Shown here in pieces: positions 1,298 through 59,057 of a stretch of 59,057 nt of DNA. The position numbers were made by a program, and so were the translations under genes. The stretch covers positions 1 through 59,057 of IMG/VR virus record IMGVR_UViG_3300045988_136150; one strand, given 5' to 3'. The stretch is from a virus. Within the stretch, counting starts at the first letter, position 1. Each line of letters begins with the position of its first letter. Under the pieces are notes generated by a model. That model did not search any database. It was not told the origin of the DNA and worked only from the letters and a program-made list of their open reading frames with translations.

Positions 1298-1340
1298 TCT
1301 AAAAATAAGGCGGAAATGTGATTAAGATAGGTAAGCTATA
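1298..1340 (+). promoter_or_regulatory. Bipartite intergenic motif, copy 1 (diverged 3' half)
   Basis: tctaaaa at 1298 and gtgattaag at 1318, the 20-nt offset seen in all copies. Upstream of 1376. Confidence 0.5.
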
Positions 1341-1375
1341 AAGGATAGTAAAACTAATACAGGAGGTATAAGCGT

Positions 1376-2446
1376 ATGGGCTTAGCAAGTTTGATAAAGG
1401 TAGCACAGGGTAAGAACGCTGGGAGCGTATCCTTTGAGGATAATTTTCTTAAGGCTTATGAGGATGCTGTAAGGCAGAAAGAGCTAGAGGAGAGGCAGGT
1501 AGCTCCTAGTGATTATATTCGCCCTAGCTCTATGTATGGCTGTGAGCGTATGATCTTTTTCCAGAGAGTACATAGTGGATCTCTTAATGGGGAGCAGAGC
1601 GATGTACCGCTTATTGAGATTTGTCAGAGTGGTACAGATAGGCACTTAGACATACAGCACATTGTAGAGCGTATGGAGGGCGTAGAGTGCTTAGATCTTG
1701 AGGAGATCGTAAAAGAGGCTAATCAAAAAGGCATTAAAACGGAGTTTATGGGATGGAATGAGGATCACACAGAGGCAAGGTGTAAAAACGATGAGCTTAG
1801 TATCTTTTTCCAGCCAGATGGAGTACTCCGCTTTATGGGTAAAGAGGTAATACTGGAGGTTAAAACAGAGAGTACTTATCAGTTTAGTAACCGATATGAG
1901 CCGAAAGAGGATCATAAGTGGCAAGCTACAAGCTATGGTATGGGCTTAGGTATTGATTATGTACTTTTCCTGTATGAGGATCGTAATTTCTGTAAGAAAA
2001 AGCTCTACCTCTGGAAAATTACCGATGAGATGAAAGAAAGAGTTAAGGCTAAGATCAATACCGTTAATACCGCCTGTAAGACAGGGATCCCCCCAGAGAA
2101 AAATGAGGATAAATGTACTTACTGTAAATATAAAAATGAGTGTGGCTTAGTGGATGCTGGTAAGTGGGTACATCCTAACCCTCCAGAAAAGACACAGAAA
2201 GCCCAGAAAGCTACAAACAGAAAAAAGCAAGGTAAATCTACTTCTAAGATTAAAAAAGGCTCACAGGGGGTAAAAACAAGCCCACAGGAGCCTCTTAAGG
2301 CTGTTAGGAAAGTGTGCGGTAACTGTAAAAATTGCTGTGATGAGGGTTTCGGAGCTTATTACTGTAGAGTAGATACAGAGGGGTCTATGTATGTAGATCG
2401 TAGAAAAGGCTGTAAGTTTACGCCTAGTAGGTTTGAGGAGGCGTAG
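1376..2446 (+). CDS. Cas4/RecB-like PD-(D/E)XK exonuclease with Cys-rich, Lys-rich C-terminal extension
   Basis: N-terminal Cys (MYGCERM), PDGVL...ILEVKT (D...ExK), QATSY (QxxxY) and CTYCKYKNEC. Confidence 0.6.
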   Translation: MGLASLIKVAQGKNAGSVSFEDNFLKAYEDAVRQKELEERQVAPSDYIRPSSMYGCERMIFFQRVHSGSLNGEQSDVPLIEICQSGTDRHLDIQHIVERMEGVECLDLEEIVKEANQKGIKTEFMGWNEDHTEARCKNDELSIFFQPDGVLRFMGKEVILEVKTESTYQFSNRYEPKEDHKWQATSYGMGLGIDYVLFLYEDRNFCKKKLYLWKITDEMKERVKAKINTVNTACKTGIPPEKNEDKCTYCKYKNECGLVDAGKWVHPNPPEKTQKAQKATNRKKQGKSTSKIKKGSQGVKTSPQEPLKAVRKVCGNCKNCCDEGFGAYYCRVDTEGSMYVDRRKGCKFTPSRFEEA

Positions 2447-5883: not shown

Positions 5884-5935
5884 TCTAAAAATTTACCTCC
5901 TTTGTGATTAAGTTAATTATTGCAGAGGAGGTAAA
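5884..5935 (+). promoter_or_regulatory. Bipartite intergenic motif, copy 2, with SD-sequestering inverted repeat
   Basis: tctaaaa at 5884 and gtgattaagttaattattgc at 5904. Arms 5892-5904 tttacctcctttg and 5923-5935 cagaggaggtaaa pair over 13 bp, including 1 G-U. Confidence 0.6.
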
Positions 5936-5938
5936 CTT

Positions 5939-6685
5939 ATGGAATTTATGACACTTGAACAGCTTAGAGAGAGAGCGTGGATAATCCCGTGGAGTGGAGG
6001 AAAAGATAGTACAGCTACCGTTATTCTTTGCCATAAATACGGAATACCGATAAAGAGGATAATTTATGTAAGAATGATGTGGGATGAAACTTTACCAGCT
6101 ACTTTACCAGTAATGACAGAGTTTGTAGATAATACTAGGCTAATATTTGAGAGCTGGGGCTACTCTGTGGATGTGGTACCTAGCCTTGTAACAGCTAAGG
6201 AGATCACAGAAAAGATCTATAAAAAGGCTAAAAATTATCCAGAAAGAAACGGTAAATACTGGGGTATTTCAGCTTTTGCTAGAGGCTTTTGCAAATTTAC
6301 AGGGGTGAAAGAGAGTACTGTAAAAACAGTATTAGATAGTAATGAAAATACGCTTGTAGGCTATGCGATAGATGAGGTGGATAGGTTACATAGATTAACA
6401 GAGAAAAAGCAATCTATAATGTGTACTCTTGGAATTACAGAGCAACAGGCTTTTTCAATTTGTAGAGAGGCAGGTTTATTATCTCCCCTGTATGAGTTGA
6501 AAGTGTTTAGGGATGGGTGCTGGTTTTGCCCTAACGCAAGAGCGGATGAGAGGGTAATGTTAAAAGAGCTGTATCCAGAGTTGGTAGTAAAAATTAAGCA
6601 GATGATAGAGATGTGTGACTATGATCTTAGCAGGTTTCAATCTAGGAATAAATGGTTACAAGATTATTTTAGCGGAAAGTTGTAG
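5939..6685 (+). CDS. PP-loop ATP pyrophosphatase, PAPS-reductase-like family
   Basis: PWSGGKDST (SGGxDS PP-loop) and a C-terminal CWFCP. Confidence 0.65.
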   Translation: MEFMTLEQLRERAWIIPWSGGKDSTATVILCHKYGIPIKRIIYVRMMWDETLPATLPVMTEFVDNTRLIFESWGYSVDVVPSLVTAKEITEKIYKKAKNYPERNGKYWGISAFARGFCKFTGVKESTVKTVLDSNENTLVGYAIDEVDRLHRLTEKKQSIMCTLGITEQQAFSICREAGLLSPLYELKVFRDGCWFCPNARADERVMLKELYPELVVKIKQMIEMCDYDLSRFQSRNKWLQDYFSGKL

Positions 6686-8384: not shown

Positions 8385-8413
8385 AAAAATTTATATAAAT
8401 GGAGGTAATGGTT

Positions 8414-8662: not shown

Positions 8663-8680
8663 AACTACATAGAAAGCCAG

Positions 8681-8711: not shown

Positions 8712-8751
8712 TCTAAAAAATTACCGCTCCTGTGATTAGGTTAAGTATCAC
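8712..8751 (+). promoter_or_regulatory. Bipartite intergenic motif, copy 3
   Basis: tctaaaa at 8712 and gtgattaggttaagtatcac at 8732-8751. Confidence 0.6.
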
Positions 8752-8770
8752 AAAGAGAGGAGGATGTACG

Positions 8771-9586
8771 GTGGCAGAGAAAAGAGTAACATCCACAGAT
8801 ATAAAATTAGCTCTTAGAGATTTACATAGCAAGAGAGCTACTTACTTTATAACGGAGTGTAAAACCTGTTCTACATACTTCCCAGATCCACAGGGGCTAC
8901 TTAAATTTGATGGGCTTGCAATAACAAAGAGCTACACTAAGCCTAATATTATTGGTTATGAGATCAAGGTTAGTAGAAACGATTTTAAGCAGGATAATAA
9001 GTGGCACTTGTATTTACAGTACTGTAATGAGTTTTACTTTGTAGTACCCACAGGGCTTGTAAAAAAAGAGGAGCTCCCAGATAATGTAGGGCTTATTTAT
9101 TATAATTCAGAAACAAAGGCTCTTAGAACTGTGAAAAAGGCTTTATACAGGCAGATAGAAAAGCCTGTAGGAGTGTATGAGTATATCATCTATAGCAGAT
9201 TGGAGCAGGATAGGATCCCTTTTTACAATGAGCGTAAAGAGTATTGTGAGGATTACCTCAGAGATAAGGTGGATAGAGAGTACATAGGGGATAGGCTGGG
9301 TAGTAAGCTGGCTATGGACTTACAAAAGGCAGAAAAACGATTACAGGAGTTAGGTAATGCAGATGCTACAGATCGTATATGGAAAAAGGTTAAGAAAGTG
9401 CTGGATAAGCATAATCTCTTACCGTGGAGCTGGTGGAAACCAGAGCAGGAGGATAAGTGGATAGCAGATCTGGATAAAGTGCTTAGTAGTGGAGGCAAAC
9501 CTTTTAAGCTGGATTATGCTATAAGCCATTTAGAGATGAGTTTAACAAGTCTAAAGAATTTAGCGGAGGATGTAGACGATGATTAA
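8771..9586 (+). CDS. MmcB-like PD-(D/E)XK nuclease family protein (putative)
   Basis: FDGLAI...GYEIKVSRNDF. GTG start at 8771 after gaggagg. The listed start at 8732 lies inside the motif. Confidence 0.45.
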   Translation: MAEKRVTSTDIKLALRDLHSKRATYFITECKTCSTYFPDPQGLLKFDGLAITKSYTKPNIIGYEIKVSRNDFKQDNKWHLYLQYCNEFYFVVPTGLVKKEELPDNVGLIYYNSETKALRTVKKALYRQIEKPVGVYEYIIYSRLEQDRIPFYNERKEYCEDYLRDKVDREYIGDRLGSKLAMDLQKAEKRLQELGNADATDRIWKKVKKVLDKHNLLPWSWWKPEQEDKWIADLDKVLSSGGKPFKLDYAISHLEMSLTSLKNLAEDVDDD

Positions 9587-11620: not shown

Positions 11621-11660
11621 TCTAAATATCTCTTACCTCTGTGATTAGGTTAAGTATCAC
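11621..11660 (+). promoter_or_regulatory. Bipartite intergenic motif, copy 4
   Basis: tctaaat at 11621 and gtgattaggttaagtatcac at 11641-11660. Confidence 0.6.
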
Positions 11661-11680
11661 AGTTAAGAGGAGGGGTAGTT

Positions 11681-11974
11681 ATGGGTATCGCCTATCAAAT
11701 GCTGGATTACTTAAAGGATTATCACACTACAGAAAACAAAGCAATAAAAAGTAGAGAGCTCCGCTCCCTGTTTAATCTTACAGATAAGCAGGTTAGAAAT
11801 GTGGTAAGCCAGTTGAGGCAGGATGGAGAGCCTGTATGTAGCTCCTCTTATGGATACTGGTATAGCACGGATCCAGACGATATAGAGAAAACTTTACATA
11901 GGCTGGAGGCACAGGTGGAAAATATGAGTATTTCCATCAAAGGATTACAAAAGGCTTTAGGAGGTAAAGGATGA
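11681..11974 (+). CDS. Hypothetical winged-helix-like protein
   Basis: SRELRSLFNLTDKQVRNVVSQLRQDG resembles a wHTH. Weak call. Confidence 0.35.
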   Translation: MGIAYQMLDYLKDYHTTENKAIKSRELRSLFNLTDKQVRNVVSQLRQDGEPVCSSSYGYWYSTDPDDIEKTLHRLEAQVENMSISIKGLQKALGGKG

Positions 11975-14568: not shown

Positions 14569-14601
14569 TATTTCAGTATTCCTATGAAATGACAATGAAA
14601 A

Positions 14602-14646
14602 GGCGGAGAGCGGAGCTGGGGGGCGGAAAAAGAGCCAAAAGGCGGA
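14602..14646 (+). promoter_or_regulatory. Three GGCGGA boxes spaced 19-20 bp upstream of terS (candidate pac or regulator sites)
   Basis: ggcgga at 14602, 14622 and 14641, with further copies at 14543 and 14881. Confidence 0.35.
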
Positions 14647-14878
14647 AAGAAAGCCACTCTATAGTATAAAAATACTAAGAGTAAAGATAATGAAAAATAA
14701 TACTGAAATATAAAAGGGTAATTCAAAAGGAGTATTGAAAAGCCTGTAATAAGATTTTCAATATAAATATTCCTCAAAGTAAGGAGAGAAATACGGTAGG
14801 TAAGAAAAACTGTAGAAAATTTCCCATATACCAAAAGGGGAGAAAAAAGGGCGTTTTGAGCCAGAAAGGAGGGCAAAA

Positions 14879-15442: not shown

Positions 15443-15482
15443 TCTAAAAAAGAGGCTGAAAAGTGATTATATTGAGTATCAC
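15443..15482 (+). promoter_or_regulatory. Bipartite intergenic motif, copy 5
   Basis: tctaaaa at 15443 and gtgattatattgagtatcac at 15463-15482. Confidence 0.55.
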
Positions 15483-15512
15483 AGCAAAATAAAAGTACAG
15501 GAGGTACATAGT

Positions 15513-15887
15513 ATGAGTGATAATATTAAGCATCCCTCTCATTATGCGGAGGGTAGAAAACACGAGCCTAAGGATGTTATCCGTGATTGGGGGCTCAATT
15601 TTAATATGGGAAATGCGGTAAAGTATCTTTCCAGAGCAGGGCGTAAAGGAGATAAGATTGAGGATCTTAAGAAAGCCCAGCAGTATATCCAGTTTGAGAT
15701 TGATGCTATTGAGGCAGAGCGTGAGGGAAATACTCCTAAGGCTCCTATCCATCCTAATTGTAGATGCTCTGTTAAGCCTGTAATGCGTGATATGCCGAAA
15801 GTGGGAGTAATTGAGCTGGAGGTACCTGTAGGAACTCCTCCAGAGGAGATTATCCAGATGGCTATTAAGAAAATCTACGGAGCGTGA
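15513..15887 (+). CDS. DUF3310-like protein with C-terminal HPNCRC segment
   Basis: HPSHYAEG...GNAVKYLSRAGRKG is DUF3310-like. C-terminal PIHPNCRCSVKPV matches the MuF motif at 21.59 kb. Confidence 0.55.
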   Translation: MSDNIKHPSHYAEGRKHEPKDVIRDWGLNFNMGNAVKYLSRAGRKGDKIEDLKKAQQYIQFEIDAIEAEREGNTPKAPIHPNCRCSVKPVMRDMPKVGVIELEVPVGTPPEEIIQMAIKKIYGA

Positions 15888-38908: not shown

Positions 38909-38940
38909 CAATGCCCTTATTAAGTGGTAGCGGTGAGATA

Positions 38941-39063
38941 GTTTCTTAATTACTAAACTTGGTGGTAAATGGAATAATGGCTCTAAATGTGGCTTTTATC
39001 TGAATTTGAATAATACCTCCTCTAATCGTAATCGGAATATCAGCAGTCACTTACTATATGTGC
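38941..39063 (+). repeat. DGR template repeat (TR)
   Basis: Non-coding copy of the VR, rich in AAT/AAA triplets in the VR frame. Carries adenines where the VR varies. Confidence 0.9.
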
Positions 39064-39327: not shown

Positions 39328-40587
39328 ATGAAAGGTACTGGAGATTTATATTCTAAGATTTACGATATGGATAATCTTAGAACAACCCACAAACACGCTA
39401 GGCGTGGTAAAGGTTGGTATAAGGAGGTTAAACAAGTAGAGAAAAACTTAGACGGAGCTCTAAAGAAACTACAGATCAGCCTTATAGAGCATACCTACAA
39501 TACCTCTCCCTATGAAACCTTTGAGAAAAAGGAAAACGGTAAAATTAGGGAGATATATAAGCTACCCTATTATCCAGATCGTATATGTCAATGGGCTATA
39601 TTGCAGGTAATAGAGCCTTATTTACTAAAAACTATGACCGCAGATACTTATAGTGCTATTCCTAAGAGGGGTAGCCAGCCTATCATAAACAAGCTGAGAG
39701 GTTACGAAAAAGTAATCAAGAAAGATGGGAAAGTGGTAAGGAAATTCTGGGTACCTAGTATTTTAGTGAGTGATCCAGAGGGTACTAAGTATTGCCTCAA
39801 AATGGATGTTAGAAAGTATTATCCTAGCATCATACACGATGTGCTCAAAAAGAGATACAGAGAGCTTTTTAAGGATGAGGAGCTCCTGTGGTTACTGGAT
39901 GAGATTATAGACAGTATCAGCACTTGCCCTTATACAGAGGAAAATGTGGAGATACTGGAGAGGCTTGGTATCTTAGTAAATGTTGTTATAGATACAGAGG
40001 GTAGGGAGTTTATTGAGGGTGTAGGTATTCCTATTGGTAACTATGTTTCACAGTATGACGGAAATTTTAATCTATCTCCGCTGGATCACTGGCTGAAAGA
40101 GGTTAAGGGGATCAAGTATTACTTTCGTTATATGGATGATATGGTTATACTGGGTGGCTCAAAAGAGGAATTACACAAGCTGAAAAGGGAGATAGATGAG
40201 TTTATGGCGGTAGAGCTAAAGCAGGTGCTTAAGCATAACTGGCAGGTATTTCCTACTAAAGTGCGTGGTATTGATTTTGTAGGCTATAGATTTTTCGGAG
40301 AGTACACTCTACTTAGGAAATCTACTTGTAAAAACTTTAAGCGTAAGATGTTAGACATCTCCAGTAAAAGAGAAAACAATGTGAGCCCTAGTTATAGTGA
40401 TTGGTGCTCATTTAATAGCTATGTGGGCTGGCTAAAGTGGTGTGATAGTTGGAGGCTATCTCAAAAGTATATAGAGCCTAACATAGAATATATGCACGAA
40501 TATTACTTAAAGGAGGTAAAAGGTAATGCAGAAATTTGTAAAGGTAAGAAGTACAGCAGAGGAAGTACAGGCGGTGGAAATCAATGA
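39328..40587 (+). CDS. DGR-type reverse transcriptase
   Basis: KIREIYKLPYYPDRICQWAI, MDVRKYYPSI, IPIGNYVSQ ([I/L]GxxxSQ) and RYMDDMVIL (YxDD). Confidence 0.9.
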   Translation: MKGTGDLYSKIYDMDNLRTTHKHARRGKGWYKEVKQVEKNLDGALKKLQISLIEHTYNTSPYETFEKKENGKIREIYKLPYYPDRICQWAILQVIEPYLLKTMTADTYSAIPKRGSQPIINKLRGYEKVIKKDGKVVRKFWVPSILVSDPEGTKYCLKMDVRKYYPSIIHDVLKKRYRELFKDEELLWLLDEIIDSISTCPYTEENVEILERLGILVNVVIDTEGREFIEGVGIPIGNYVSQYDGNFNLSPLDHWLKEVKGIKYYFRYMDDMVILGGSKEELHKLKREIDEFMAVELKQVLKHNWQVFPTKVRGIDFVGYRFFGEYTLLRKSTCKNFKRKMLDISSKRENNVSPSYSDWCSFNSYVGWLKWCDSWRLSQKYIEPNIEYMHEYYLKEVKGNAEICKGKKYSRGSTGGGNQ

Positions 40588-43598: not shown

Positions 43599-45320
43599 AT
43601 GGCTTACAGGAAAGTAAAGGATCTGTTTGAAACAATAGGATTAAGGGCGGTATTTTATGCCAGAGTATCTACAGCGGAGGAGGAACAGTTAAACGCTATA
43701 GAGCTCCAGATAGAGGAGAATAGAAATATAATCCTCAAAAATAAGTGGAAAAAGGTAGATGAGTATATAGATCGGAGTAAAACTGGTACAATGGTTAAAG
43801 GCAGAGATGAGTACCAGAGGCTCTATGAGGATATGCTGGAGGATAAGTTTGATATTATTGTGATTAAAGATCAAGATCGCCTCCAGCGTAATACTAAGGA
43901 TTGGTACCTCTTTATAGATCGCTTAGTGCAAACAGGAAAGCTCCTGTATATGTATCTGGATGGTAAGTTTTACTCTCCAGATGATGCACTTATTACAGGT
44001 ATTAGAGCTATCATAGCGGAGGAATTTAGCAGAAATCTCTCTAAAAAGCTCCATAATTACCACGCTAACCGTATTGAGAAAGCTAGACAGGGCTTAGAGA
44101 TTGATTTACAGGGTAGCGGTAATGTGTTTGGCTGGGATAAGAAAGATGGTAAATACTATATTAACCCAGATCAAGCTAAGGTAAGGAGGCTTATGTGTGA
44201 GGGCATTATGGCTAGAAAAGGCTCCACACAGATAGCGGATGAGCTTAATAAGGCTGGATACCGTAATACTGTAGGTAATCTGTGGAAACCTATGGATATA
44301 CCTAAGTTTGTGTACGATTGTAAAAATGTTGGTACTATGATTATCAATAAAGAAAAACACGATTTTGAGAGTAAGCAGATAATTAAACTCCCAGAGGAGG
44401 AGTGGGTATATGTAAAGGGTGCCCTCCCTCCTATCGTAACAGAGGAGGAGTGGGATCTTATTTGTAAGATCCACGATGAGAGAGTACTCTCTGTAGGAGC
44501 CGATCACAGAGGCAGAGGTAAAAAGGTAAGCGGATACTCCTTTAGTGGTAAAATAGTTTGCGGAATATGTGGAGCTCCTTACTGGAGAAAACAAAAAACC
44601 TCTAAAGAGGAGTACTGGGTATGCAGTACTAAGCAAACTAAAGGCAGAAAAACCAGAAAGAGAGATAGCGTATTGGGTAAGGCTGGAGAGATCAATGAGT
44701 TAGGCTGTGATAATGAAAATATCTCTTATAATGCTCTTATGAAGGTTATGAGTATCATATCAGAGCGATTACAGGCTAATACAGAGGTTATTAAGGCGGA
44801 TATGGTAAACTGGCTTACCTCACTTAAAAAACAGCTCCAGAGGGCAAATGGAGGCTCTACAGAGGCAGATCTAAAGAGAGAGGAGCTCCGCAAAGATCGG
44901 TTACTGGATGCCCTTTTAGATGGGGTGCTCACTAAAGAGGAATATAGTAAAAAAGCATTAACGATTGATCTTAAAATCACAGAAATAAAAAAAGAAATGC
45001 TGGCTAACCGTAATAGTATAGAGGATATTGCAGAGATAGATAGAGTACTGGCTAATATAGATGCAGAGGTGGCTACCTATCTGGATGAAAATAACCAGCT
45101 TAAGATAGATTTTATCTTAGAACACTTAGAGAGCGTAGAGATCTACCCAGATAAAGTAGTGGTTATGATACCGCTATTTAGTGAGGGTATGGTAGTATAT
45201 AAAACTCAGTATGTATCTGGGGAGAAATGGTGCAAGATACATACTGAAAATATCCATTACCTAAGCTCCTATAAATACTGGAATAAGAAAATAGATCTCT
45301 ATGTGAGGTTAGTAGCATAA
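43599..45320 (+). CDS. Large serine recombinase (integrase)
   Basis: AVFYARVSTAEEEQ (catalytic Ser region), resolvase-like N-terminus, a Cys cluster CGICGAPYW...WVC and a long coiled-coil C-terminus. Confidence 0.85.
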   Translation: MAYRKVKDLFETIGLRAVFYARVSTAEEEQLNAIELQIEENRNIILKNKWKKVDEYIDRSKTGTMVKGRDEYQRLYEDMLEDKFDIIVIKDQDRLQRNTKDWYLFIDRLVQTGKLLYMYLDGKFYSPDDALITGIRAIIAEEFSRNLSKKLHNYHANRIEKARQGLEIDLQGSGNVFGWDKKDGKYYINPDQAKVRRLMCEGIMARKGSTQIADELNKAGYRNTVGNLWKPMDIPKFVYDCKNVGTMIINKEKHDFESKQIIKLPEEEWVYVKGALPPIVTEEEWDLICKIHDERVLSVGADHRGRGKKVSGYSFSGKIVCGICGAPYWRKQKTSKEEYWVCSTKQTKGRKTRKRDSVLGKAGEINELGCDNENISYNALMKVMSIISERLQANTEVIKADMVNWLTSLKKQLQRANGGSTEADLKREELRKDRLLDALLDGVLTKEEYSKKALTIDLKITEIKKEMLANRNSIEDIAEIDRVLANIDAEVATYLDENNQLKIDFILEHLESVEIYPDKVVVMIPLFSEGMVVYKTQYVSGEKWCKIHTENIHYLSSYKYWNKKIDLYVRLVA

Positions 45321-45337
45321 TTTTTATATATGGGGTA

Positions 45338-45394
45338 TCTAAAATTATATACCTCCTGTGATTAAGTTAAGTATCAAAATCACAGGAGGTATAT
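45338..45394 (+). promoter_or_regulatory. Bipartite intergenic motif, copy 6, with perfect 17-bp SD-sequestering inverted repeat
   Basis: tctaaaa at 45338 and gtgattaagttaagtatcaa at 45358. Arms 45347-45363 atatacctcctgtgatt and 45378-45394 aatcacaggaggtatat. Confidence 0.65.
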
Positions 45395-45398
45395 TTTT

Positions 45399-47072
45399 AT
45401 GGTATCGGTTGAAAAGCTGGATAAAGGTACCTATTTTGAGGATGCCTTTAAGGTTTCTTTTAAGTACGATCCTACTACGGTAGCTAAGATAAAAAAGCTG
45501 GCGGAAAGGAGATACTTACCAGAGGATAGAGCGTGGGAGATCCCCTCTTATGAGCTCCCTAATCTGGTAGAAACGCTAGGGAGCCATAACATTACCAGTA
45601 ACAGCGGTGTAATGGATGCCCTCAAAACTAAGGAAATAAAGGATAAAAGAGAGGCTACGCAGGAAAGATTAAAAGGCATAAAGCCTATTATAGATTTTCC
45701 TTTTACCACTACTCCCCTCCCTCATCAGATAGAGGCATTTAACTATGGGCTGGAGAGAGATGAGCTCCTTATAGGAGATGAGCAGGGCTTAGGTAAAACT
45801 AAGGAGAGTATAGATATTACCGTAGCCAGAAAAAAGGAGCTCTGTAAGTGCCTTATCGTATGCGGTGTAAACTCCGTTAAGTATAACTGGGAGGCAGAGA
45901 TTAGGATCCACTCTAAGGAAAAAAGTGTTATGCTGGATCAAAAAACAATGCCTCTAAGAGTAAAAGCTCTTAATGAGTGGCTTAGAGGATCTGAGTATTA
46001 TGCTATTATCAATATTGAGAGCCTCCGTAATGAGGCTGTGCAGGATGCTATATACTTAGGCATTAAGGATGGATATATAGGCTGTATTATCGTAGATGAG
46101 ATCCATAAGGCTAAGAATGGTAACAGCCAGCAAGGGAAAGCTCTTAGGATGCTTAAGAGCCCTGTTAAAATAGGTTTATCTGGTACTCCTATGAATAAGG
46201 CAGAGGATCTATGGAATATCCTTACTTGGTTAGGGATTGAAAAGAGGAGCTTTTACAGTTTTCGTAATGCCTACTGTGTTATGGGAGGATACGGAGGCTA
46301 TAAAGTAGTAGGACATAAAAACCTAGAGAGCCTCAATGCTGAGTTAAATAAAGTTATGCTCCGTAGAAAGAAAGAGGAGGTACTGGATCTACCACCTAAG
46401 ATCCACTCCACAGAGTATGTAGAACTTACTAAGAAACAGCAGGTACTCTATAGAGATATTAAAAATGGTATTATAGAGGATATGGAGAATATCCTAGCCT
46501 CTGTTAATCCGCTTAGCTGTACTCTTAGATTAAGACAGCTTACAGGAGGTATGTTTACAGAGGATAACCCTAAGTTGGAGCGTATTATGGATATGCTCTC
46601 TGAGGAGATTATCCCTAACGGTTATAAGGCTATTATTTTCTCTCAATGGGAGCAAATAGCCAGCCTCTATTATGAGGCGTTAAAGGAGTATAACCCTGTA
46701 TATATTGTGGGTAAGGTATCTCCAGAGGATAGACAGAAAGAGGTAGAGCGTTTCCAAAATGATCCTAATTGTAAGCTGGCTGTAGGTACTATAGGGGCTA
46801 TGGGTACAGGATTAACCCTTAATAAAGCCTCCTATGTATTCTTTATAGATAAACTCTGGAATAGTGGAGAAAATGCACAGGCGGAGGATCGTGCTCATCG
46901 TATCGGTACCGCTGGTACTGTAAATGTTATCTCTATGGTGGCTAAGGGATCTGTAGATGAGGGTGTGGAGGAGTACCTCTTAGAAAATCAAGATCTTTTT
47001 GATAGAGTAGTAGATGGCAAAGGATCTAAGGCAGATATTAAAACAATTCTTAATAAGCTGTTGAAACTGTAA
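45399..47072 (+). CDS. SNF2-family helicase
   Basis: GDEQGLGKT, VDEIHKAKN (DExH) and QAEDRAHRIGT. Confidence 0.85.
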   Translation: MVSVEKLDKGTYFEDAFKVSFKYDPTTVAKIKKLAERRYLPEDRAWEIPSYELPNLVETLGSHNITSNSGVMDALKTKEIKDKREATQERLKGIKPIIDFPFTTTPLPHQIEAFNYGLERDELLIGDEQGLGKTKESIDITVARKKELCKCLIVCGVNSVKYNWEAEIRIHSKEKSVMLDQKTMPLRVKALNEWLRGSEYYAIINIESLRNEAVQDAIYLGIKDGYIGCIIVDEIHKAKNGNSQQGKALRMLKSPVKIGLSGTPMNKAEDLWNILTWLGIEKRSFYSFRNAYCVMGGYGGYKVVGHKNLESLNAELNKVMLRRKKEEVLDLPPKIHSTEYVELTKKQQVLYRDIKNGIIEDMENILASVNPLSCTLRLRQLTGGMFTEDNPKLERIMDMLSEEIIPNGYKAIIFSQWEQIASLYYEALKEYNPVYIVGKVSPEDRQKEVERFQNDPNCKLAVGTIGAMGTGLTLNKASYVFFIDKLWNSGENAQAEDRAHRIGTAGTVNVISMVAKGSVDEGVEEYLLENQDLFDRVVDGKGSKADIKTILNKLLKL

Positions 47073-47118
47073 GGGAAAATATGTTATACTAGGGGTATAT
47101 AAAAAGGAGGTACGCTTA

Positions 47119-47356: not shown

Positions 47357-47388
47357 TGAGGAGGGCTTAACAGCTCTCCTCTTTTTTT
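47357..47388 (+). terminator. Rho-independent terminator
   Basis: gaggagggct pairs with agctctcctc, followed by T8. Confidence 0.75.
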
Positions 47389-47430: not shown

Positions 47431-47470
47431 TCTAAATTTTTTACCTCTATGAGATTAAGTTAAGCATCAC
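47431..47470 (+). promoter_or_regulatory. Bipartite intergenic motif, copy 7
   Basis: tctaaat at 47431 and gagattaagttaagcatcac at 47451-47470. Confidence 0.55.
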
Positions 47471-47491
47471 ATAAAACAGGAGGTAGGCATT

Positions 47492-47794
47492 ATGTTAAAA
47501 ATTCAATTTGCAAATGCACAGGTAAGGGATAACGGTTATGGGATCTCTGTAAATGGTAAGGAGCTTAGTGAGATTATCTCCACAGCTCTAGGTACCAGAG
47601 CAAGCGGTAAGTACGGTTATAATTCTGGGCTCCCAGCCTTTGAGAGTAATAGCTGTGATGTTACTGTAATCATTAACCCTCATCCTGTAGTAGAGGAGAT
47701 TGAAACAGATGAGGAGGTTTTCCATAGTGTAGCAGAGTTGGAGGAGATCAAAAATGAGCAGTATAAAGAGGAAAATGGAGAGGGCGAAAGCTAA
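47492..47794 (+). CDS. Hypothetical protein
   Basis: RBS aggagg. Confidence 0.5.
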   Translation: MLKIQFANAQVRDNGYGISVNGKELSEIISTALGTRASGKYGYNSGLPAFESNSCDVTVIINPHPVVEEIETDEEVFHSVAELEEIKNEQYKEENGEGES

Positions 47795-49247: not shown

Positions 49248-49250
49248 GTT

Positions 49251-49279
49251 AGGAGGGATTATCTCCCTCCTGTTTTTTG
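49251..49279 (+). terminator. Rho-independent terminator
   Basis: aggaggga pairs with tccctcct, followed by T6. Confidence 0.7.
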
Positions 49280-49319
49280 TCTAAAAGTATTCGGTTTGTG
49301 TGATTATATTAGTTATCAA
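49280..49319 (+). promoter_or_regulatory. Bipartite intergenic motif, copy 8
   Basis: tctaaaa at 49280 and gtgattatattagttatcaa at 49300-49319. Confidence 0.55.
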
Positions 49320-49339
49320 GGTTAAGGAGGTAGGCAAGA

Positions 49340-49996
49340 GTGAAATGCTTTGCAGAGGCATATTGCCAAAAGGATAAATCAGCCTGTAGCGATCTTTGCG
49401 GAGGTTATAGAGTGCTTAGGGCTTTATATAATTTGAGTAGGATGCCAGAGGGGTATAGATATAATATTACCTTAGAGGCTAAGGAAAGTGAGCTCCCAGC
49501 TTTTGAGGCACTCAATGAGTATAAGGAGAAAGTGCTGGAAAAAGTAGAGGTTGGAGAGGGGCTGTATATCTGGGGTAAAAGCACAGGTAACGGTAAGACA
49601 AGCTGGGCTTGTAAGATAATGAGCCACTACTTTAGAAAAATAGCCTTTGATACAGGGCTTGAAAATGAGGGGCTTTACATATTCCTCCCTACTTTTCTGG
49701 AGGATCTTAGAAATAACTACGAGGATAAAGATCCAGATTTTGAGCAGGTACTCACAATGGTAAAAAGCTGTAAGCTCCTTATCATTGATGATATAGGGGC
49801 GGAGAGAGTAACAGACTGGGTAAGGGAGAGAGTTGTAAGCATTATCAATACCAGAGTATCTAATAATCTTGCCACAATTTATACAAGTAATCTCTCTCCA
49901 GAGGAGCTTAAAGAGGAGCTGGGGGATCGTATTGCTAGTAGAGTGGTAGGCTCCTCACAGGTAATAGAAATGGTTGGAGGAGATAGGAGATTATGA
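49340..49996 (+). CDS. DnaC/IstB-like helicase loader ATPase
   Basis: WGKSTGNGKTS (Walker A) and LLIIDDIGAE (Walker B). Confidence 0.7.
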   Translation: MKCFAEAYCQKDKSACSDLCGGYRVLRALYNLSRMPEGYRYNITLEAKESELPAFEALNEYKEKVLEKVEVGEGLYIWGKSTGNGKTSWACKIMSHYFRKIAFDTGLENEGLYIFLPTFLEDLRNNYEDKDPDFEQVLTMVKSCKLLIIDDIGAERVTDWVRERVVSIINTRVSNNLATIYTSNLSPEELKEELGDRIASRVVGSSQVIEMVGGDRRL

Positions 49997-51558: not shown

Positions 51559-51620
51559 TCTAAAAATTACCCCCATTTCTTATTAGGTTAAGTAACTGTA
51601 CAAGAAATGGAGGTAATTTT
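51559..51620 (+). promoter_or_regulatory. Bipartite intergenic motif, copy 9, with 19-nt SD-sequestering arms
   Basis: tctaaaa at 51559 and cttattaggttaagtaactg at 51579. Arms 51563-51581 aaaattacccccatttctt and 51602-51620 aagaaatggaggtaatttt (1 mismatch). Confidence 0.6.
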
Positions 51621-51623
51621 ATT

Positions 51624-52088
51624 ATGGAGAAATTCTTTAGTAGTAAAGATGTATCGGATGTTCTTGGAAAGAGGCACGATAATCTACTTAGAGCTATCCG
51701 TAAATACTGTGAGCAGTTAGGAGAGGATGCTCCTAAGTATTTTATCTTAGAGGGAGAGGGGCGTAAGGCTACTTATAAGGTTACTTATCTTGGCTGTGAG
51801 CTTTTGGCTGGGCGTATGATTGGCAAGGCTGGAGATGAGTTTAGGCTCTGGTATAAAGGTAATTTAGGAGAGCCTGTAGTAGAGGATCCTCCTGTGGAGC
51901 CAGAGGAGGAAAAAGCGTACACAGTAGCAGAGGTAGTAGAAATGCTTGGGATGAGTGAGAGATCTGTGTATCGTAATATCCAGAGCGGTAAGCTGGAGGC
52001 TGTAGAGCGTGAGGTATTGGTACCTACGGTTAAAAAGTTTGTAACAGCGGAGGCTCTGGAAAGATTTAAGGCAGAAAGAGAGGGCTAA
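51624..52088 (+). CDS. Rha-like regulatory protein with C-terminal excisionase/MerR-type HTH
   Basis: SSKDVSDVLGKRHDNLLRAIRKY is Rha-like. YTVAEVVEMLGMSERSVYRNIQSGKL. Confidence 0.55.
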   Translation: MEKFFSSKDVSDVLGKRHDNLLRAIRKYCEQLGEDAPKYFILEGEGRKATYKVTYLGCELLAGRMIGKAGDEFRLWYKGNLGEPVVEDPPVEPEEEKAYTVAEVVEMLGMSERSVYRNIQSGKLEAVEREVLVPTVKKFVTAEALERFKAEREG

Positions 52089-52822: not shown

Positions 52823-53209
52823 TTAAAGCTCCTTAGTATGTAGCTCTAGTAATCTTTGAGCTACCCCTTGCAGTAGGCGTATATCAGCATTTTCTAGCTG
52901 TATTGAGAGTTTTAGTAGCTCATAGAGCTCTGTGTTACTCTCTACCAGCTTAGCTATCACAATAGGATCGGAGGATGCAGATGTGGATCTGGTTACTGGA
53001 TCTGTGAGGAGATCCGTAGTGGTAATGTGGAAGTAGTTAGCCAGCATTTCTACCTTATCCATTCTAGGGAACATCTTACCGTTTACCCATTGTGAGAGCG
53101 TTGAGGAGCTGATTTTAAGATCCTTAGTGAGATCTTGTTGGGTTTTTCCGTAAAGGTTTAGGTAGTACCTAAGAGCTTTAGAAAATACCTCTTGTGGAGT
53201 ATCGCCCAT
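52823..53209 (-). CDS. CI-like phage repressor (XRE HTH), the only convincing minus-strand gene
   Basis: YGKTQQDLTKDLKISSSTLSQWVNGKMFPRMDKVEMLANYF. Divergent from a consensus promoter region containing palindromes. Confidence 0.8.
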   Translation of the reverse strand: MGDTPQEVFSKALRYYLNLYGKTQQDLTKDLKISSSTLSQWVNGKMFPRMDKVEMLANYFHITTTDLLTDPVTRSTSASSDPIVIAKLVESNTELYELLKLSIQLENADIRLLQGVAQRLLELHTKEL

Positions 53210-53314: not shown

Positions 53315-53343
53315 TTGACATTTCTGTTTAACAGAAGTATAAT
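53315..53343 (+). promoter_or_regulatory. Consensus rightward early promoter with operator-like palindrome B in the spacer
   Basis: TTGACA (53315-53320), a 17-nt spacer, then TATAAT (53338-53343). The spacer holds ttctgtt-t-aacagaa (53322-53336). Confidence 0.7.
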
Positions 53344-53403: not shown

Positions 53404-53432
53404 TTTCTGTTTGGCAAAACTAAAAACAGAAA
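53404..53432. promoter_or_regulatory. Operator-like inverted repeat C
   Basis: tttctgttt (53404-53412) and aaacagaaa (53424-53432), 11 nt apart. Confidence 0.4.
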
Positions 53433-54888: not shown

Positions 54889-55482
54889 ATGAATACAGGA
54901 TTATCAAATGAGCAGTTAGTTAGGAATTACAAGGATAGCGGAAATGAGATGTACTTAGGAGAGCTTATCAAGAAAAACACGCCTTTACTTAGGATGCTGG
55001 TAGAGCCTTATCTGGCTACTATCCCTCATAGTGAGCTGGAGGATCTCATAGCAGAGAGTTACATACCGATGTTAAAGGCTGTGGATGATTTTGATGAGAG
55101 TAGAGGCTTAGCGTTTATTACTCTCCTTAAGGCGTATGTACGCCAGAACTTAAACCGCCTCTATAACGAGGCTACGAGGCAGAAACGCTACACAGGATCC
55201 GCTCCTATTTCTTATGAGGCACTCACAGAGATAAACAAAGAGGGCGGATGTGAGATGGATAGCTATTTTACTGTGGAGTGCGAGGATGTAAAGGCTTTTG
55301 AGTTTCAAGATCTCATTAGATCCTTGCACTTAAACGAAAAGGAGCAGGTAGCGGTAACAGTACTTATGGATGGGGGCACAAAGGGAGAGGTAGCTAAGGC
55401 TCTGGGATGCACTCCAGCAACAGCTAACTACTATTTCAAGAGCATAAGAAAAAAGTTTGTTTTAGCAGGATATTCTCTCTAA
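54889..55482 (+). CDS. Phage-encoded sigma-70-family RNA polymerase sigma factor
   Basis: Region-2-like DLIAESYIPMLKAVDDFDESRGLAFITLLKAYVRQNL. Region-4-like EKEQVAVTVLMDGGTKGEVAKALGCTPATANYYFKSIRKK. Confidence 0.7.
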   Translation: MNTGLSNEQLVRNYKDSGNEMYLGELIKKNTPLLRMLVEPYLATIPHSELEDLIAESYIPMLKAVDDFDESRGLAFITLLKAYVRQNLNRLYNEATRQKRYTGSAPISYEALTEINKEGGCEMDSYFTVECEDVKAFEFQDLIRSLHLNEKEQVAVTVLMDGGTKGEVAKALGCTPATANYYFKSIRKKFVLAGYSL

Positions 55483-55517
55483 ATAAAACCGTTGTATCTG
55501 ATTAAGTTAATCATAAC
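55478..55517 (+). promoter_or_regulatory. Bipartite intergenic motif, copy 10
   Basis: tctaaat at 55478 (overlaps the sigma-gene stop) and ctgattaagttaatcataac at 55498-55517. Confidence 0.5.
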
Positions 55518-55540
55518 GAAAAAGGAGGCGGTGCTTATAT

Positions 55541-55699
55541 ATGAGAAGTGTAAAAACGCTGTTAGCCATCCTTAGAGGAGAGGCTGTGGTGCTTATCAAA
55601 AAGGATGAGCGTAATGCTGATGTAGTGATTGGTAGATCTGTAGGTAAGCGTTTTGCCATTAGCTCTATGGTAGGAGCAGTTAAGGCTATGATGCTTTGA
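55541..55699 (+). CDS. Small hypothetical protein (52 aa, not in ORF track)
   Basis: Hand translation MRSVKTLLAILRGEAVVLIKKDERNADVVIGRSVGKRF. RBS aaggagg. Confidence 0.4.
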   Translation: MRSVKTLLAILRGEAVVLIKKDERNADVVIGRSVGKRFAISSMVGAVKAMML

Positions 55700-58878: not shown

Positions 58879-58929
58879 TCTAAAAATAGCCTCCTTTTGT
58901 GATTAGGATCGATCAAAGACAAAAGGAGG
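58879..58929 (+). promoter_or_regulatory. Bipartite intergenic motif, copy 11, with 11-bp SD-sequestering arms and a GATCGATC loop
   Basis: tctaaaa at 58879 and gtgattaggatcgatcaaag at 58899. Arms 58890-58900 cctccttttgt and 58919-58929 acaaaaggagg. Confidence 0.6.
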
Positions 58930-58937
58930 TTTTATTT

Positions 58938-59057
58938 ATGGAGTTTATCAAGAGCCCACTTAATTATACAGGTGGAAAATATAAGCTCCTCCCACAGCTC
59001 CTAGAGCTGTTTCCTACAAATATTGATACCTTTGTCGATTTGTTTGCAGGGGGGGGG
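58938..59057 (+). CDS. 5' end of the Dam-like methyltransferase gene (continues across the circular junction into 47..797)
   Basis: MEFIKSPLNYTGGKYKLLPQLLELFPTNIDTFVDLFAGGG. RBS aaggagg. Runs off the window inside the G-run. Confidence 0.8.
   Translation, partial: MEFIKSPLNYTGGKYKLLPQLLELFPTNIDTFVDLFAGGG
59003..59057. repeat. Terminal direct overlap (copy of 1-55)
   Basis: Identical by eye to the first 55 bases. Confidence 0.9.

What the first reader, a model, noticed from the sequence alone, without database searches (positions are those of the whole stretch)
45338..45394. Eleven-copy bipartite intergenic element whose covarying arms would sequester the Shine-Dalgarno sequence
**Shared signature.** Eleven + strand intergenic sites carry TCTAAA(A/T), then exactly 13 nt, then (G/C)TGATTA(A/G)GTTAAGTATCA(C/A). 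The two halves start at:

| Copy | TCTAAA | GTGATTA |
|---|---|---|
| 1 | 1298 | 1318 |
| 2 | 5884 | 5904 |
| 3 | 8712 | 8732 |
| 4 | 11621 | 11641 |
| 5 | 15443 | 15463 |
| 6 | 45338 | 45358 |
| 7 | 47431 | 47451 |
| 8 | 49280 | 49300 |
| 9 | 51559 | 51579 |
| 10 | 55478 | 55498 |
| 11 | 58879 | 58899 |

The 20-nt offset is invariant. Each copy lies 20-60 nt upstream of a gene start, often just after a terminator. None occurs in the structural/lysis block from about 17.5 to 45.3 kb.

**Anti-SD arms.** In 7 of 11 copies the 13-nt spacer contains an anti-SD-like (A)CCTC(C). In four copies this extends into long inverted repeats that include the RBS of the downstream gene:
- 45347-45363 with 45378-45394 (17 of 17)
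- 51563-51581 with 51602-51620 (18 of 19)
- 5892-5904 with 5923-5935 (13 bp, including 1 G-U)
- 58890-58900 with 58919-58929 (11 of 11)

The arm sequences differ between copies but stay complementary, while the apical GATTAAGTTAAGTATCA is conserved. That pattern fits a selected hairpin.

**Possible roles.**
- A phage-specific middle promoter.
- A protein-bound RNA stem-loop.
- A device that makes translation depend on whether the transcript starts inside the element (SD free) or reads through it (SD masked).
Basis: seen in the sequence. Interest (0 to 1): 0.7.

Follow-up and report, generated by a model that had tools for sequence, protein, structure and literature searches.

The report
Phage promoters that mask read-through translation
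A gut/oral Lachnospiraceae prophage starts each of its 11 non-structural operons with one conserved two-box signal, most likely the promoter for the phage's own sigma factor. The stretch between the boxes often pairs with the next gene's ribosome-binding site, so RNA arriving from upstream should be silenced while RNA started at the signal is translated.

Summary
Eleven + strand copies of TCTAAA(A/T)-N13-(G/C)TGATTA(R)G(T/A)T precede the non-structural operons of a circular ~59-kb temperate phage. None lies in the structural block.

About 50 related phage contigs and three MAG prophages carry the same motif. All sites at or above the 12-14-bit cut-offs used are on the gene strand. These phages all encode a conserved 197-aa sigma-70-family protein whose stop codon sits inside copy 10.

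- In 77 of 100 non-redundant sites the Shine-Dalgarno (SD) sequence pairs with motif positions 1-28. Only 17% of control genes do this.
- Arm flanks covary: 0 of 5000 within-ortholog permutations and 0 of 500 shuffles reach the observed value.
- Left arms end at or before position 28 and right arms start at or after position 36, so a transcript starting at about position 33-38 lacks the left arm.
- Strong hairpins occur almost only where no canonical terminator lies upstream (47/69 versus 2/31). They are followed by T-rich tails.

Best reading: a phage-sigma promoter whose spacer doubles as an anti-SD arm. Read-through RNA is masked and possibly terminated. This is the bacteriophage T4 e/soc/49/I-TevI logic used across a whole regulon with a different promoter type. 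Transcript starts and sigma dependence are inferred, not shown. It is a new variant of a known kind.

The parts
1298..1378 (+). Copy 1: motif, then SD and ATG of the Cas4-like exonuclease gene. No anti-SD arm. It lies directly after terminator 1264-1291.
   Evidence: z = +1.3
5884..5941 (+). Copy 2: motif with a strong SD-sequestering hairpin (core arms 5892-5904 and 5923-5935). No terminator upstream.
   Evidence: -24.4 kcal/mol, z = -6.9
8712..8773 (+). Copy 3: motif with weak SD pairing. It follows terminator 8679-8706.
   Evidence: -12.3 kcal/mol, z = -0.5
11621..11683 (+). Copy 4: motif with moderate SD pairing. It follows a 13-bp stem plus T-run at 11575-11605.
   Evidence: -15.3 kcal/mol, z = -1.0
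15443..15515 (+). Copy 5: motif without an anti-SD arm, between the small terminase subunit gene and the DUF3310/ThyX genes.
45338..45401 (+). Copy 6 (the flagged one).
- Box 1 is 45338-45343 and box 2 is 45357-45368.
- The left arm 45347-45363 spans the spacer and the 5' part of box 2. The right arm 45378-45394 contains the SD AGGAGG at 45384-45389.
- A T-tract at 45395-45398 precedes the ATG at 45399 (SNF2 helicase gene).
- The predicted transcript start is at about 45370-45375.
- The copy lies directly after the integrase stop codon, with no terminator between.
   Evidence: -27.1 kcal/mol, z = -8.3
47431..47494 (+). Copy 7: motif with weak SD pairing, about 50 nt after terminator 47358-47381.
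49280..49342 (+). Copy 8: motif without an anti-SD arm, directly after terminator 49250-49272. It precedes the DnaC-like and DnaB genes.
51559..51626 (+). Copy 9: motif with a strong hairpin (51563-51581 with 51602-51620) that masks the SD of the Rha-family regulator gene. No terminator upstream.
   Evidence: -23.5 kcal/mol, z = -4.6
55478..55543 (+). Copy 10: the motif's TCTAAA holds the stop codon of the sigma gene. Pairing is weak and offset (CCG with CGG next to the SD). It precedes the SSB and DNA polymerase A (PolA) operon.
58879..58940 (+). Copy 11: motif with a strong hairpin (58881-58900 with 58919-58938) that masks the SD of the D12 methylase gene. No terminator upstream.
   Evidence: -22.6 kcal/mol, z = -5.4
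54889..55482 (+). Phage sigma-70-family factor (197 aa, sigma region 2 plus an HTH sigma region 4). This is the candidate reader of the motif.
53315..53343 (+). Perfect sigma-A promoter (TTGACA-17-TATAAT) with the palindrome TTCTGTTTAACAGAA in its spacer. It lies next to the cI-like repressor gene 52823-53209 (-). It is the presumed early promoter driving the primase and sigma genes.

Best explanation
The 11-copy element is the promoter of the phage's non-structural (middle) regulon. It is most likely read by the phage's own sigma factor, gene 54889-55482, which is itself made from a host sigma-A early promoter at 53315-53343.

**Proposed anatomy.**
- Box 1 (TCTAAA) acts as the -35 element.
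- Box 2 (TGTGATTAnGTT) acts as the -10 element.
- Transcription starts about 33-38 nt after the first T, around a conserved T35-A36.

**Proposed mechanism.**
- The promoter spacer is otherwise free of sequence constraint. It has been recruited as an anti-Shine-Dalgarno arm.
- In RNA that enters from the upstream gene, this arm pairs with the SD of the next gene. The -10 box and start site end up in the loop, and ribosome binding is blocked.
- Where the stem is long and followed by a U-rich tail, transcription probably also stops there.
- RNA that starts at the promoter lacks the left arm, so its SD is free.
- Each unit's translation therefore depends on its own promoter.

**Shown here:** the motif, its conservation and strand bias, the pairing, the covariation, the arm geometry, and the inverse relation with terminators.

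**Inferred:** that the motif is a promoter, which sigma reads it, where the transcript starts, and that masking or termination actually happens.
For: **The motif is real and specific to this lineage.**
- 7 of 11 copies match the full consensus against 0 expected.
- A weight matrix that ignores the spacer finds 115 sites in the window plus 22 loci, all on the gene strand, with a bimodal score distribution.
- 36 further loci, whose sigma is 61-62% identical, hold 1-7 sites each and none on the other strand.
- In 120 non-redundant sites, box positions 1-5, 23-27 and 31 are 97.5-100% conserved.
The other 33 were mostly single hits.

**It looks like a promoter.**
- Sites sit at operon starts, sometimes 4-16 nt after a terminator or overlapping its T-tract.
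- The only sigma-70-like hit with at least 10 of 12 matches that faces a gene start in the early regions outside the three below is 47061-47090, upstream of the MerR gene. None lies in the 11 leaders. The three best sigma-A hits (12/12 and 11/12) are elsewhere, at 53315, 6757 and 8340.

**A cognate sigma is present.**
- Pfam Sigma70_r2, NCBIfam sigma70-ECF superfamily and PHROG 351 all match.
- The top Foldseek hits of the AlphaFold2 model (those with E <= 0.005) are sigma factors.
- The sigma region 4 helix is invariant across relatives, as is box 1.
- The sigma stop codon lies inside a motif copy in 13 of the 14 post-sigma sites compared; L017 differs.

**The SD pairs with the motif.**
- P(SD paired to motif positions 1-28) exceeds 0.5 in 77 of 100 sites, against 17% of 294 control genes (p = 4e-29).
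- The mean falls to 0.30 for RNA starting at position 33.

**The arms covary.**
- Own flanks form 10.6 of 14 possible pairs. The same ortholog position in another phage gives 9.3, and other ortholog groups give 7.7. No within-group permutation of 5000 reaches the observed total.
- 180 compensated cells against 83 +/- 6 in shuffles. Covariation score 0.43 against 0.19 shuffled and 0.11-0.16 with partners slid.
- 4 of 10 pairs are compensatory in the Rha ortholog group.

**The geometry fits an internal start.** Left arms end at or before position 28 and right arms start at or after position 36.

**Pairing strength tracks read-through risk.**
- Strong hairpins (<= -18 kcal/mol) occur in 47 of 69 sites without an upstream terminator and 2 of 31 with one (Fisher p = 3e-9; group-level rho = 0.57, p = 0.03).
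- Terminator-preceded sites still pair the SD, 0.59 against 0.20 in controls.

**Precedent.** T4 genes e, soc, 49 and I-TevI, and the homing-endonuclease genes segB (T4) and mobE (phage Aeh1), work this way (PMC3014915, PMC2988022).
Against: - No transcript 5' ends, no sigma binding data and no expression data exist for this phage group. It has no cultured or annotated relative.
- The boxes resemble no characterised consensus closely. From memory, the sigma-28 class TAAA-N15-GCCGATAA is the nearest, but its spacing differs by about 2 nt.
- TCTAAA(A/T)A also resembles a T4-late-type -10 (TATAAATA). If it were the -10, transcripts would start inside the left arm.
- In 3 of the 4 strong window copies the upstream unit is driven by the same motif. 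Masking therefore cannot serve to separate temporal classes.
- In the window itself only 4 of 11 hairpins beat shuffled sequence.
- The covariation alignment was fitted to the stem register, which inflates the percentage of paired cells.
- Related sites are not independent observations.
- G-U versus A-C counts do not discriminate RNA-level from DNA-level selection.
Confidence: 0.62

Rival explanations
1. The hairpin is mainly an intrinsic terminator for the upstream unit, folded around the next promoter. Terminator, promoter and ribosome-binding site are compacted into about 65 nt. The SD is in the right arm only because it is the G-rich sequence available downstream of the start site. On this view translational masking is a by-product.
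For: - Strong hairpins and canonical upstream terminators are nearly mutually exclusive (2/31 versus 47/69).
- The SD-to-start spacer is 67% T in strong-hairpin sites, 30% in weak ones and 27% in 326 control genes.
- The T-richness holds per ortholog group. Groups 1, 3, 5, 7 and 12 have 0.62-0.84 T. Terminator-preceded groups 2, 4, 6 and 8 have 0.23-0.29.
- Group 3 sits where the integrase gene needs a terminator. By my reading, its T5-6 tract is kept although poorly paired to the upstream A-run (sequences).
- In the window, 3 of the 4 strong copies follow units of the same promoter class.
Against: - The arms are 10-50 nt apart (median about 16), far beyond the 3-8 nt loops of the phage's own canonical terminators.
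- About two thirds of the tail T's can pair with the conserved A-run of box 1, so stem extension alone could explain the T-richness.
- A terminator placed entirely upstream would work as well. Only SD masking explains why the right arm is always the SD.
- Terminator-preceded sites have T-poor tails yet still carry anti-SD complementarity, 0.59 against 0.20 in controls (p = 1e-9).
Confidence: 0.2
2. Transcripts start upstream of the left arm, for example with TCTAAA(A/T)A acting as a -10-like element. The hairpin is then present on every mRNA of the unit. Box 2, in the loop, is an RNA site for a phage protein that opens the stem or stabilises the RNA. This would be activation of translation in the manner of the Mu Com protein on mom mRNA.
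For: - TCTAAA(A/T)A matches 6-7 of 8 positions of the T4 late -10 TATAAATA (my comparison).
- Box 2 lies in or next to the loop in every hairpin.
Against: - Both boxes are invariant at sites with no stem at all.
- The stem register slides by up to 14 nt relative to the boxes. A protein that recognises a hairpin would not tolerate this.
- The fixed 20-nt offset between boxes, about two helical turns, fits DNA recognition by a two-domain sigma.
- This model does not explain why stems vanish after terminators.
- No Rfam family matches.
Confidence: 0.1
3. The motif is a DNA operator, or a stoperator like those of mycobacteriophage L5. A phage repressor would bind it to silence every lytic unit in the lysogen. 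The GTGAT-N10-ATCAC dyad would be the repressor's site.
For: - The sites are multi-copy, intergenic and in one orientation, as for L5 stoperators (from memory).
- A 5-bp dyad, GTGAT...ATCAC, is present in four window copies.
Against: - The switch region next to the cI-like repressor carries a different palindrome, TTCTGTTTAACAGAA, inside the sigma-A early promoter, and no copy of the motif.
- The ATCAC half is poorly conserved: position 38 is C in 69 of 120 sites and position 40 is C in 46 of 120.
- Units that follow terminators would be left with no promoter at all.
Confidence: 0.05

Closest known systems
Bacteriophage T4-type transcript-specific RBS sequestration: T4 genes e, soc, 49, I-TevI/II/III and segB, and mobE of phage Aeh1 (PMC3014915, PMC2988022)
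   Same: - A hairpin sequesters the SD in long transcripts coming from upstream.
- A phage-specific promoter lies in or over the 5' arm, so its own transcripts lack that arm and are translated.
- Arm sequences differ between related phages while the pairing is kept.
   Different: - The T4 cases are individual late genes embedded in early or middle units, and they use the gp55 promoter TATAAATA, which has no -35 element.
- Here the host is a Firmicute and the promoter is bipartite with a different consensus.
- The anti-SD sits in the spacer between the -35 and -10 boxes.
- The device recurs at roughly half of all promoters of one regulon: 4 strong and 4 weak among the 11 window copies, and 77 of 100 sites across relatives.
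- The upstream unit is often of the same promoter class.
- Stem strength is inversely related to the presence of an upstream terminator.
Regulons of phage-encoded sigma factors (SPO1 gp28 and gp33/34, phiEco32 and 7-11 sigma; PMC8948821)
   Same: - A phage-encoded sigma-70-family protein is made early.
- A multi-copy phage-specific promoter consensus stands in front of later genes.
   Different: - Those are virulent phages with mapped promoters.
- This is a temperate phage whose sigma has no hit in 50,697 annotated phage records.
- Sigma dependence is inferred here, not shown.
Intrinsic (Rho-independent) terminators
   Same: - A stable stem holds a G+C core and is followed by a T-rich tract.
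- It occupies the slot where a terminator would otherwise be.
   Different: - The arms are 10-50 nt apart, against 3-8 nt loops in the canonical kind.
- The base of the stem is A-U rich.
- The stem encloses a promoter and includes the next gene's SD.
Mycobacteriophage L5 stoperators
   Same: Many copies of an asymmetric intergenic motif in one orientation relative to transcription.
   Different: - L5 sites are single 13-bp repressor sites that also occur at the early promoter.
- Here the motif is bipartite, is absent from the switch region, and is the only promoter candidate for its units.

Membership tests
T4-type promoter-in-hairpin translational masking | An RNA helix includes the SD and/or start codon of the regulated gene | tested here: met
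   - The SD pairs with motif positions 1-28 in 77 of 100 sites, against 17% of controls.
- Four window copies fold with z = -4.6 to -8.3.
- The arms covary.
T4-type promoter-in-hairpin translational masking | A promoter is placed so that its transcripts lack the 5' arm | not testable with these tools
   - The geometry is compatible. Left arms end at or before position 28, right arms start at or after position 36, and a conserved T35-A36 is present.
- No transcript 5' ends are available.
T4-type promoter-in-hairpin translational masking | Transcription from upstream reads into the leader | tested here: met
   - No terminator lies between the upstream gene and copies 2, 6, 9 and 11.
- Across relatives, 47 of 69 terminator-less sites have strong stems.
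T4-type promoter-in-hairpin translational masking | The promoter is the T4 late type (TATAAATA, gp55/gp33) | tested here: not met
   - The consensus is different and bipartite.
- The sigma has both region 2 and region 4.
- The element is therefore analogous to the T4 cases, not homologous.
Promoter read by a sigma-70-family factor | Two conserved boxes at fixed spacing of about two helical turns, strand-specific, upstream of genes | tested here: met
   The 20-nt start-to-start offset is invariant in all 11 window copies and about 270 relatives' sites, all on the gene strand.
Promoter read by a sigma-70-family factor | A cognate sigma factor is encoded and co-occurs with the motif | tested here: met
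   - The gene is identified as a sigma factor by sequence and by predicted fold.
- Every sigma-bearing relative carries the motif.
- The motif is multi-copy almost only in this lineage; 3 unrelated loci hold two weight-matrix sites each.
Promoter read by a sigma-70-family factor | Holoenzyme initiates at the site | not testable with these tools
   This needs in vitro transcription or 5' end mapping.
Intrinsic terminator | A G+C-containing stem is followed at once by a U-tract | tested here: inconclusive
   - Tails are T-rich, 67% against 27% in controls.
- About two thirds of those T's can pair with the A-run of box 1.
Intrinsic terminator | A short loop of about 3-8 nt | tested here: not met
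   The arms are 10-50 nt apart.
Repressor operator or L5-type stoperator | The same site is present at the repressor-controlled early promoter | tested here: not met
   The switch region has a different palindrome and no motif copy.
Known structured RNA family (Rfam 15) | A covariance-model match at the gathering score | tested here: not met
   There are no matches anywhere in the window.

The most novel reading that the evidence does not exclude
A lineage of Lachnospiraceae temperate phages has fused three signals into one ~65-nt module: an intrinsic terminator, a phage-sigma promoter and a ribosome-binding site.

- The promoter spacer is the left arm of the hairpin.
- The -10 box and start site lie in the loop.
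- The next gene's SD is the right arm.
- The SD-to-start spacer is the U-tract.

The same DNA would then give a terminated and untranslatable RNA when read from upstream, and a translatable mRNA when transcription starts internally. Units of one regulon would be insulated at both the transcriptional and the translational level. The module also appears to be evolutionarily interchangeable with a conventional terminator-then-promoter arrangement at orthologous positions.
Probability: 0.35. Interest if true: 0.72.

Novelty: new variant of a known kind. Interest (0 to 1): 0.6.

Why it matters
- **Testable transcription programme.** It gives an uncultured but common group of gut and oral Lachnospiraceae prophages a testable programme. 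A host sigma-A early promoter would drive a phage sigma, which would drive about 11 middle units.
- **Generalises a T4 trick.** Making translation depend on where the transcript started has been documented for a handful of T4 late genes. Here it would be used regulon-wide in a Gram-positive temperate phage, with the otherwise unconstrained promoter spacer recruited as the anti-SD.
- **A clue to function.** The trade-off with canonical terminators suggests a general design rule for insulating adjacent operons.
- **A compact part.** The module is a natural part that could be used in synthetic biology for Firmicutes.
- **An annotation caveat.** Strong hairpins in front of genes need not be terminators or attenuators.

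Tried and rejected
- **Known RNA family.** Rfam gave no hit anywhere in the window.
- **Annotated phage relatives.** None found by DNA or by sigma protein, so there is no literature on this phage group. Two literature searches for a described equivalent returned only the T4 cases.
- **Repressor operator or stoperator.** Rejected because the switch region carries a different palindrome and no motif copy.
- **Antitermination (nut- or put-like) site.** Rejected on logic. Several copies lie just downstream of a terminator, where such a site could not act.
- **Hairpin promoters like those of phage N4 virion RNA polymerase.** Rejected. The stems and loops are far larger, and I saw no candidate phage RNA polymerase among the ORFs I inspected: the longest are a 1080-aa ORF in the structural block, a 729-aa unannotated ORF and the PolA gene. 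Structural-block genes were not annotated with tools.
- **G-U versus A-C mismatches as a test of RNA-level selection.** Uninformative: 85 G-U and 27 A-C observed against 91 and 39 in shuffles, and the stem register was chosen counting G-U as a pair.
- **Column-based alignment of one ortholog group.** It under-counts pairs because the anti-SD slides within a fixed-length spacer. I replaced it with a stem-anchored alignment.
- **Sigma/motif co-variation.** Sigma homologs below about 57% identity could not be reached, so I could not test whether the motif changes with the sigma.
It was redone with proteins returned by the homology search.
Full report
**1. The genome.**

The window is a circular assembly. 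Its first and last 55 nt are identical, which gives a temperate phage of about 59.0 kb. All genes are on the + strand except a cI-like repressor at 52823-53209.

- A serine integrase lies at 43599-45320.
- Replication and recombination genes fill 45.4-59 kb and 0-17 kb. They include an SNF2 helicase, DnaC-like and DnaB-like proteins, a primase, SSB, DNA polymerase A (PolA), a Cas4-like exonuclease and methylases.
- The structural and lysis block fills 17.5-43.4 kb.
- A perfect sigma-A promoter (TTGACA-17-TATAAT) at 53315-53343 faces away from the repressor. It leads, with no + strand terminator in between, to the primase gene and a 197-aa sigma-70-family gene at 54889-55482.
- That protein matches Pfam Sigma70_r2, the NCBIfam sigma70-ECF superfamily and PHROG 351.
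- Its AlphaFold2 model (pLDDT 73) has two helical domains joined by a disordered linker. The top Foldseek hits (those with E <= 0.005) are sigma factors: a SigH model, WhiG, sigma-E and SigB.

**2.

- The full consensus matches 7 copies at 3 or fewer mismatches, against none in 100 shuffles.
- A weight matrix separates the 11 copies (34-54 bits) from everything else (11.7 bits or less). No copy lies in the structural block.
- The four long inverted repeats are exactly as described. They fold far better than shuffled sequence (z = -4.6 to -8.3).
- The other seven copies do not fold better than shuffles. In four of them the SD still pairs weakly with the spacer.

**3. Relatives.**

The sigma protein retrieved about 50 IMG/VR contigs and three MAG prophages from Lachnospiraceae or Clostridia, at 57-92% identity. 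A homolog also lies in a complete genome of Lachnospiraceae bacterium oral taxon 500. No annotated phage record is related.

- A weight matrix with the spacer zeroed finds 115 sites in the window plus the first 22 loci, all on the gene strand, with a bimodal score distribution.
- The 36 further loci hold 1-7 sites each and none on the opposite strand.
- In 120 non-redundant sites the boxes are nearly invariant. They read T1 C2 T3 A4 A5 A6, then T22 G23 A24 T25 T26 A27 n G29 (T/A)30 T31.
- T35 and A36 are also conserved. Spacer positions 12-16 are C-rich.
Of the 116 loci analysed, 83 are relatives of this phage and the rest are mostly single hits. The motif is therefore a lineage-specific signal, not a general host promoter.

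**4. Why it is probably a promoter.**

- The two boxes keep a fixed spacing of about two helical turns regardless of what lies between them.
- Sites stand at the starts of operons. Several lie 4-16 nt after a canonical terminator or even overlap its T-tract, which leaves no room for another promoter.
- None of the 11 leaders contains a sigma-A-like promoter with at least 10 of 12 matches. The only such hit facing a gene start outside the three best sites is 47061-47090, upstream of the MerR gene.
- Genes between the integrase and the repressor are upstream of the early promoter, so they need their own promoters.
- The phage encodes a two-domain sigma. Its region 4 recognition helix is invariant across relatives, as is box 1.
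- The sigma stop codon lies inside a motif copy in 13 of the 14 post-sigma sites compared; L017 differs.
- From memory, the nearest known consensus is the sigma-28 class (TAAA-N15-GCCGATAA). This is a resemblance only.

Any reasonable assignment of the -10 within box 2 puts the transcript start at motif positions 34-38. This step is inference.

**5. The arms.**

Each of 100 non-redundant leaders was folded from TCTAAA to the start codon.

- The SD pairs with motif positions 1-28 at probability above 0.5 in 77 of 100 sites. Among 294 other SD-led genes of the same genomes the figure is 17% (p = 4e-29).
- RNA starting at position 33 has a mean SD pairing probability of 0.30.
- Shuffling the spacer raises the mean minimum free energy from -16.9 to -10.3 kcal/mol. 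Swapping in spacers from other sites gives -13.2 kcal/mol. A site's own spacer therefore fits better than a generic anti-SD.
- Ungapped stems of 9 bp or more occur in 50 of 100 sites. Left arms end at or before position 28 and right arms begin at or after position 36. The loop therefore always holds the distal part of box 2 and the predicted start site.
- Flanks of the CCTCC/GGAGG core form 10.6 of 14 possible pairs with their own partner. The partner from the orthologous site of another phage gives 9.3. Non-orthologous partners give 7.7. No within-group permutation of 5000 reaches the observed total.
- On a stem-anchored alignment of 56 sites, 14 of 19 pairs show changes on both sides. There are 180 compensated cells against 83 +/- 6 in shuffles (0 of 500). 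The covariation score is 0.43 against 0.19 shuffled and 0.11-0.16 with partners slid.
- That alignment was fitted to the stem register, so the percentage of paired cells is inflated. The compensated-cell count and the slid-partner control are less affected by the fitting.
- RNAalifold on the unfitted Rha-group alignment still finds 4 compensatory pairs out of 10.

**6.

Stem strength is inversely related to having a canonical terminator just upstream.

- Strong hairpins (<= -18 kcal/mol) occur in 2 of 31 terminator-preceded sites and 47 of 69 others (Fisher p = 3e-9).
- Ortholog groups behave coherently (Spearman rho = 0.57, p = 0.03, over 14 groups).
- In the window, copies 2, 6, 9 and 11 have no terminator upstream and are strong. 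Copies 1, 3, 4, 7 and 8 follow terminators and are weak or unpaired.
- Copies 5 and 10 are exceptions. Copy 10 follows the sigma gene, where early read-through into the SSB and PolA genes may be useful.
- Even terminator-preceded sites keep more SD complementarity than controls (0.59 against 0.20, p = 1e-9). This points to masking as a function in its own right.
- Strong-hairpin sites also have T-rich SD-to-start spacers: 67% T, against 30% in weak sites and 27% in 326 control genes.
- A hairpin plus a U-tract looks like an embedded terminator. However, the arms are 10-50 nt apart, and two thirds of the T's can pair with the A-run of box 1. Termination is plausible but unproven.

**7. Mechanism and purpose.**

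The best-supported reading is a promoter nested in a hairpin. RNA from upstream folds, hides the SD and perhaps terminates. RNA that starts at the motif lacks the left arm and is translated.

This is how T4 restricts lysozyme (gene e), soc, gene 49 and I-TevI to late transcripts. Masking of the T4 lysozyme message reduces synthesis about 100-fold (PMC3014915, PMC2988022).

Here the promoter type, the host phylum and the scale all differ. Three of the four strong window copies follow a unit of the same promoter class. The role therefore looks like insulation between units, and silencing of lytic genes against stray transcription in the lysogen. The strongest stems guard the gene after the integrase, the Rha-family regulator and the methylases.

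**8. Rivals.**

The rivals are an embedded terminator as the primary function, an upstream transcript start with an RNA-binding activator, and an operator or stoperator. Each is weighed in the Rival explanations section. The last is contradicted by a different palindrome at the switch region. No Rfam family matches.

**9. Verdict.**

The element is a new variant of a known kind of regulation, of moderate to high interest. The decisive experiments are mapping of transcript 5' and 3' ends in an induced lysogen, and compensatory-mutation reporters.

Noticed in passing
window 38695-38820, 38938-39063, 39328-40587: This looks like a diversity-generating retroelement. A 126-nt repeat at the 3' end of the large gene 37053-38840 in the structural block (unannotated; possibly tail fibre) is 80% identical to a copy 243 nt downstream. 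A reverse-transcriptase-like gene with a YMDD motif follows.
   Followed up: partly
window 1-55 and 59003-59057; G-run at about 45-55: - The window ends share an exact 55-nt overlap, so the assembly is circular.
- The D12 adenine methylase gene (58938 through the junction to 797) spans that junction.
- The gene contains a G10 run that puts its N- and C-terminal parts out of frame.
- Relative L011 has G9, which is in frame. L024 has G10. Others lack the run.
- This is either a phase-variable methylase or a homopolymer sequencing error.
   Followed up: partly
window 53315-53343 (and 53405-53419): The perfect sigma-A early promoter carries the palindrome TTCTGTTTAACAGAA in its spacer, next to the divergent cI-like repressor gene. 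This is the probable operator of the lysis-lysogeny switch. A weaker second site may lie about 80 nt downstream.
   Followed up: partly
window 6694-6785 and 8340-8368: A second perfect sigma-A promoter (6757-6785) follows terminator 6694-6717, inside the motif-driven region. An 11-of-12 match at 8340-8368 precedes a small zinc-ribbon membrane protein gene. The cassette 6832-8662 may be transcribed by host RNA polymerase, possibly in the lysogen.
   Followed up: no
window 45325-45337; orthologous sites in L001-L054: The 13 nt just 5' of copy 6, after the integrase stop codon, are conserved in most relatives compared as TATATAGGGGTTA. Neighbouring intergenic sequence varies. The function is unknown. 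It is not attP, because the integrase gene stays adjacent to this sequence in the integrated MAG prophage L016.
   Followed up: no
window 13021-13422 and 14553-14879: A 133-aa protein with a C-terminal sigma-region-4-like HTH gives a weak hit to PHROG 3512, annotated 'sigma factor'. It lies in the unit driven by copy 4. A 325-nt gap separates that unit from the small terminase subunit gene. The protein is a candidate late activator for the structural operon, which has no copy of the 11-copy motif.
   Followed up: no
L002 4461, L009 3936, L013 3753, L023 4780 (orthologs of window copy 8): In several relatives the T-tract of the upstream terminator is formed by box 1 and the spacer itself (…CTCTCC TCTAATTTTTT…). 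Terminator and promoter therefore overlap in the opposite sense to the anti-SD hairpins.
   Followed up: partly
L007 3636, L009 13834, L010 13897, L013 13466 and others (ortholog group 5): An MT-A70-like methylase gene, present in relatives but absent from the window, is consistently predicted to start at TTG right after a T-run. It lies behind some of the strongest hairpins, -20 to -32 kcal/mol.
   Followed up: no
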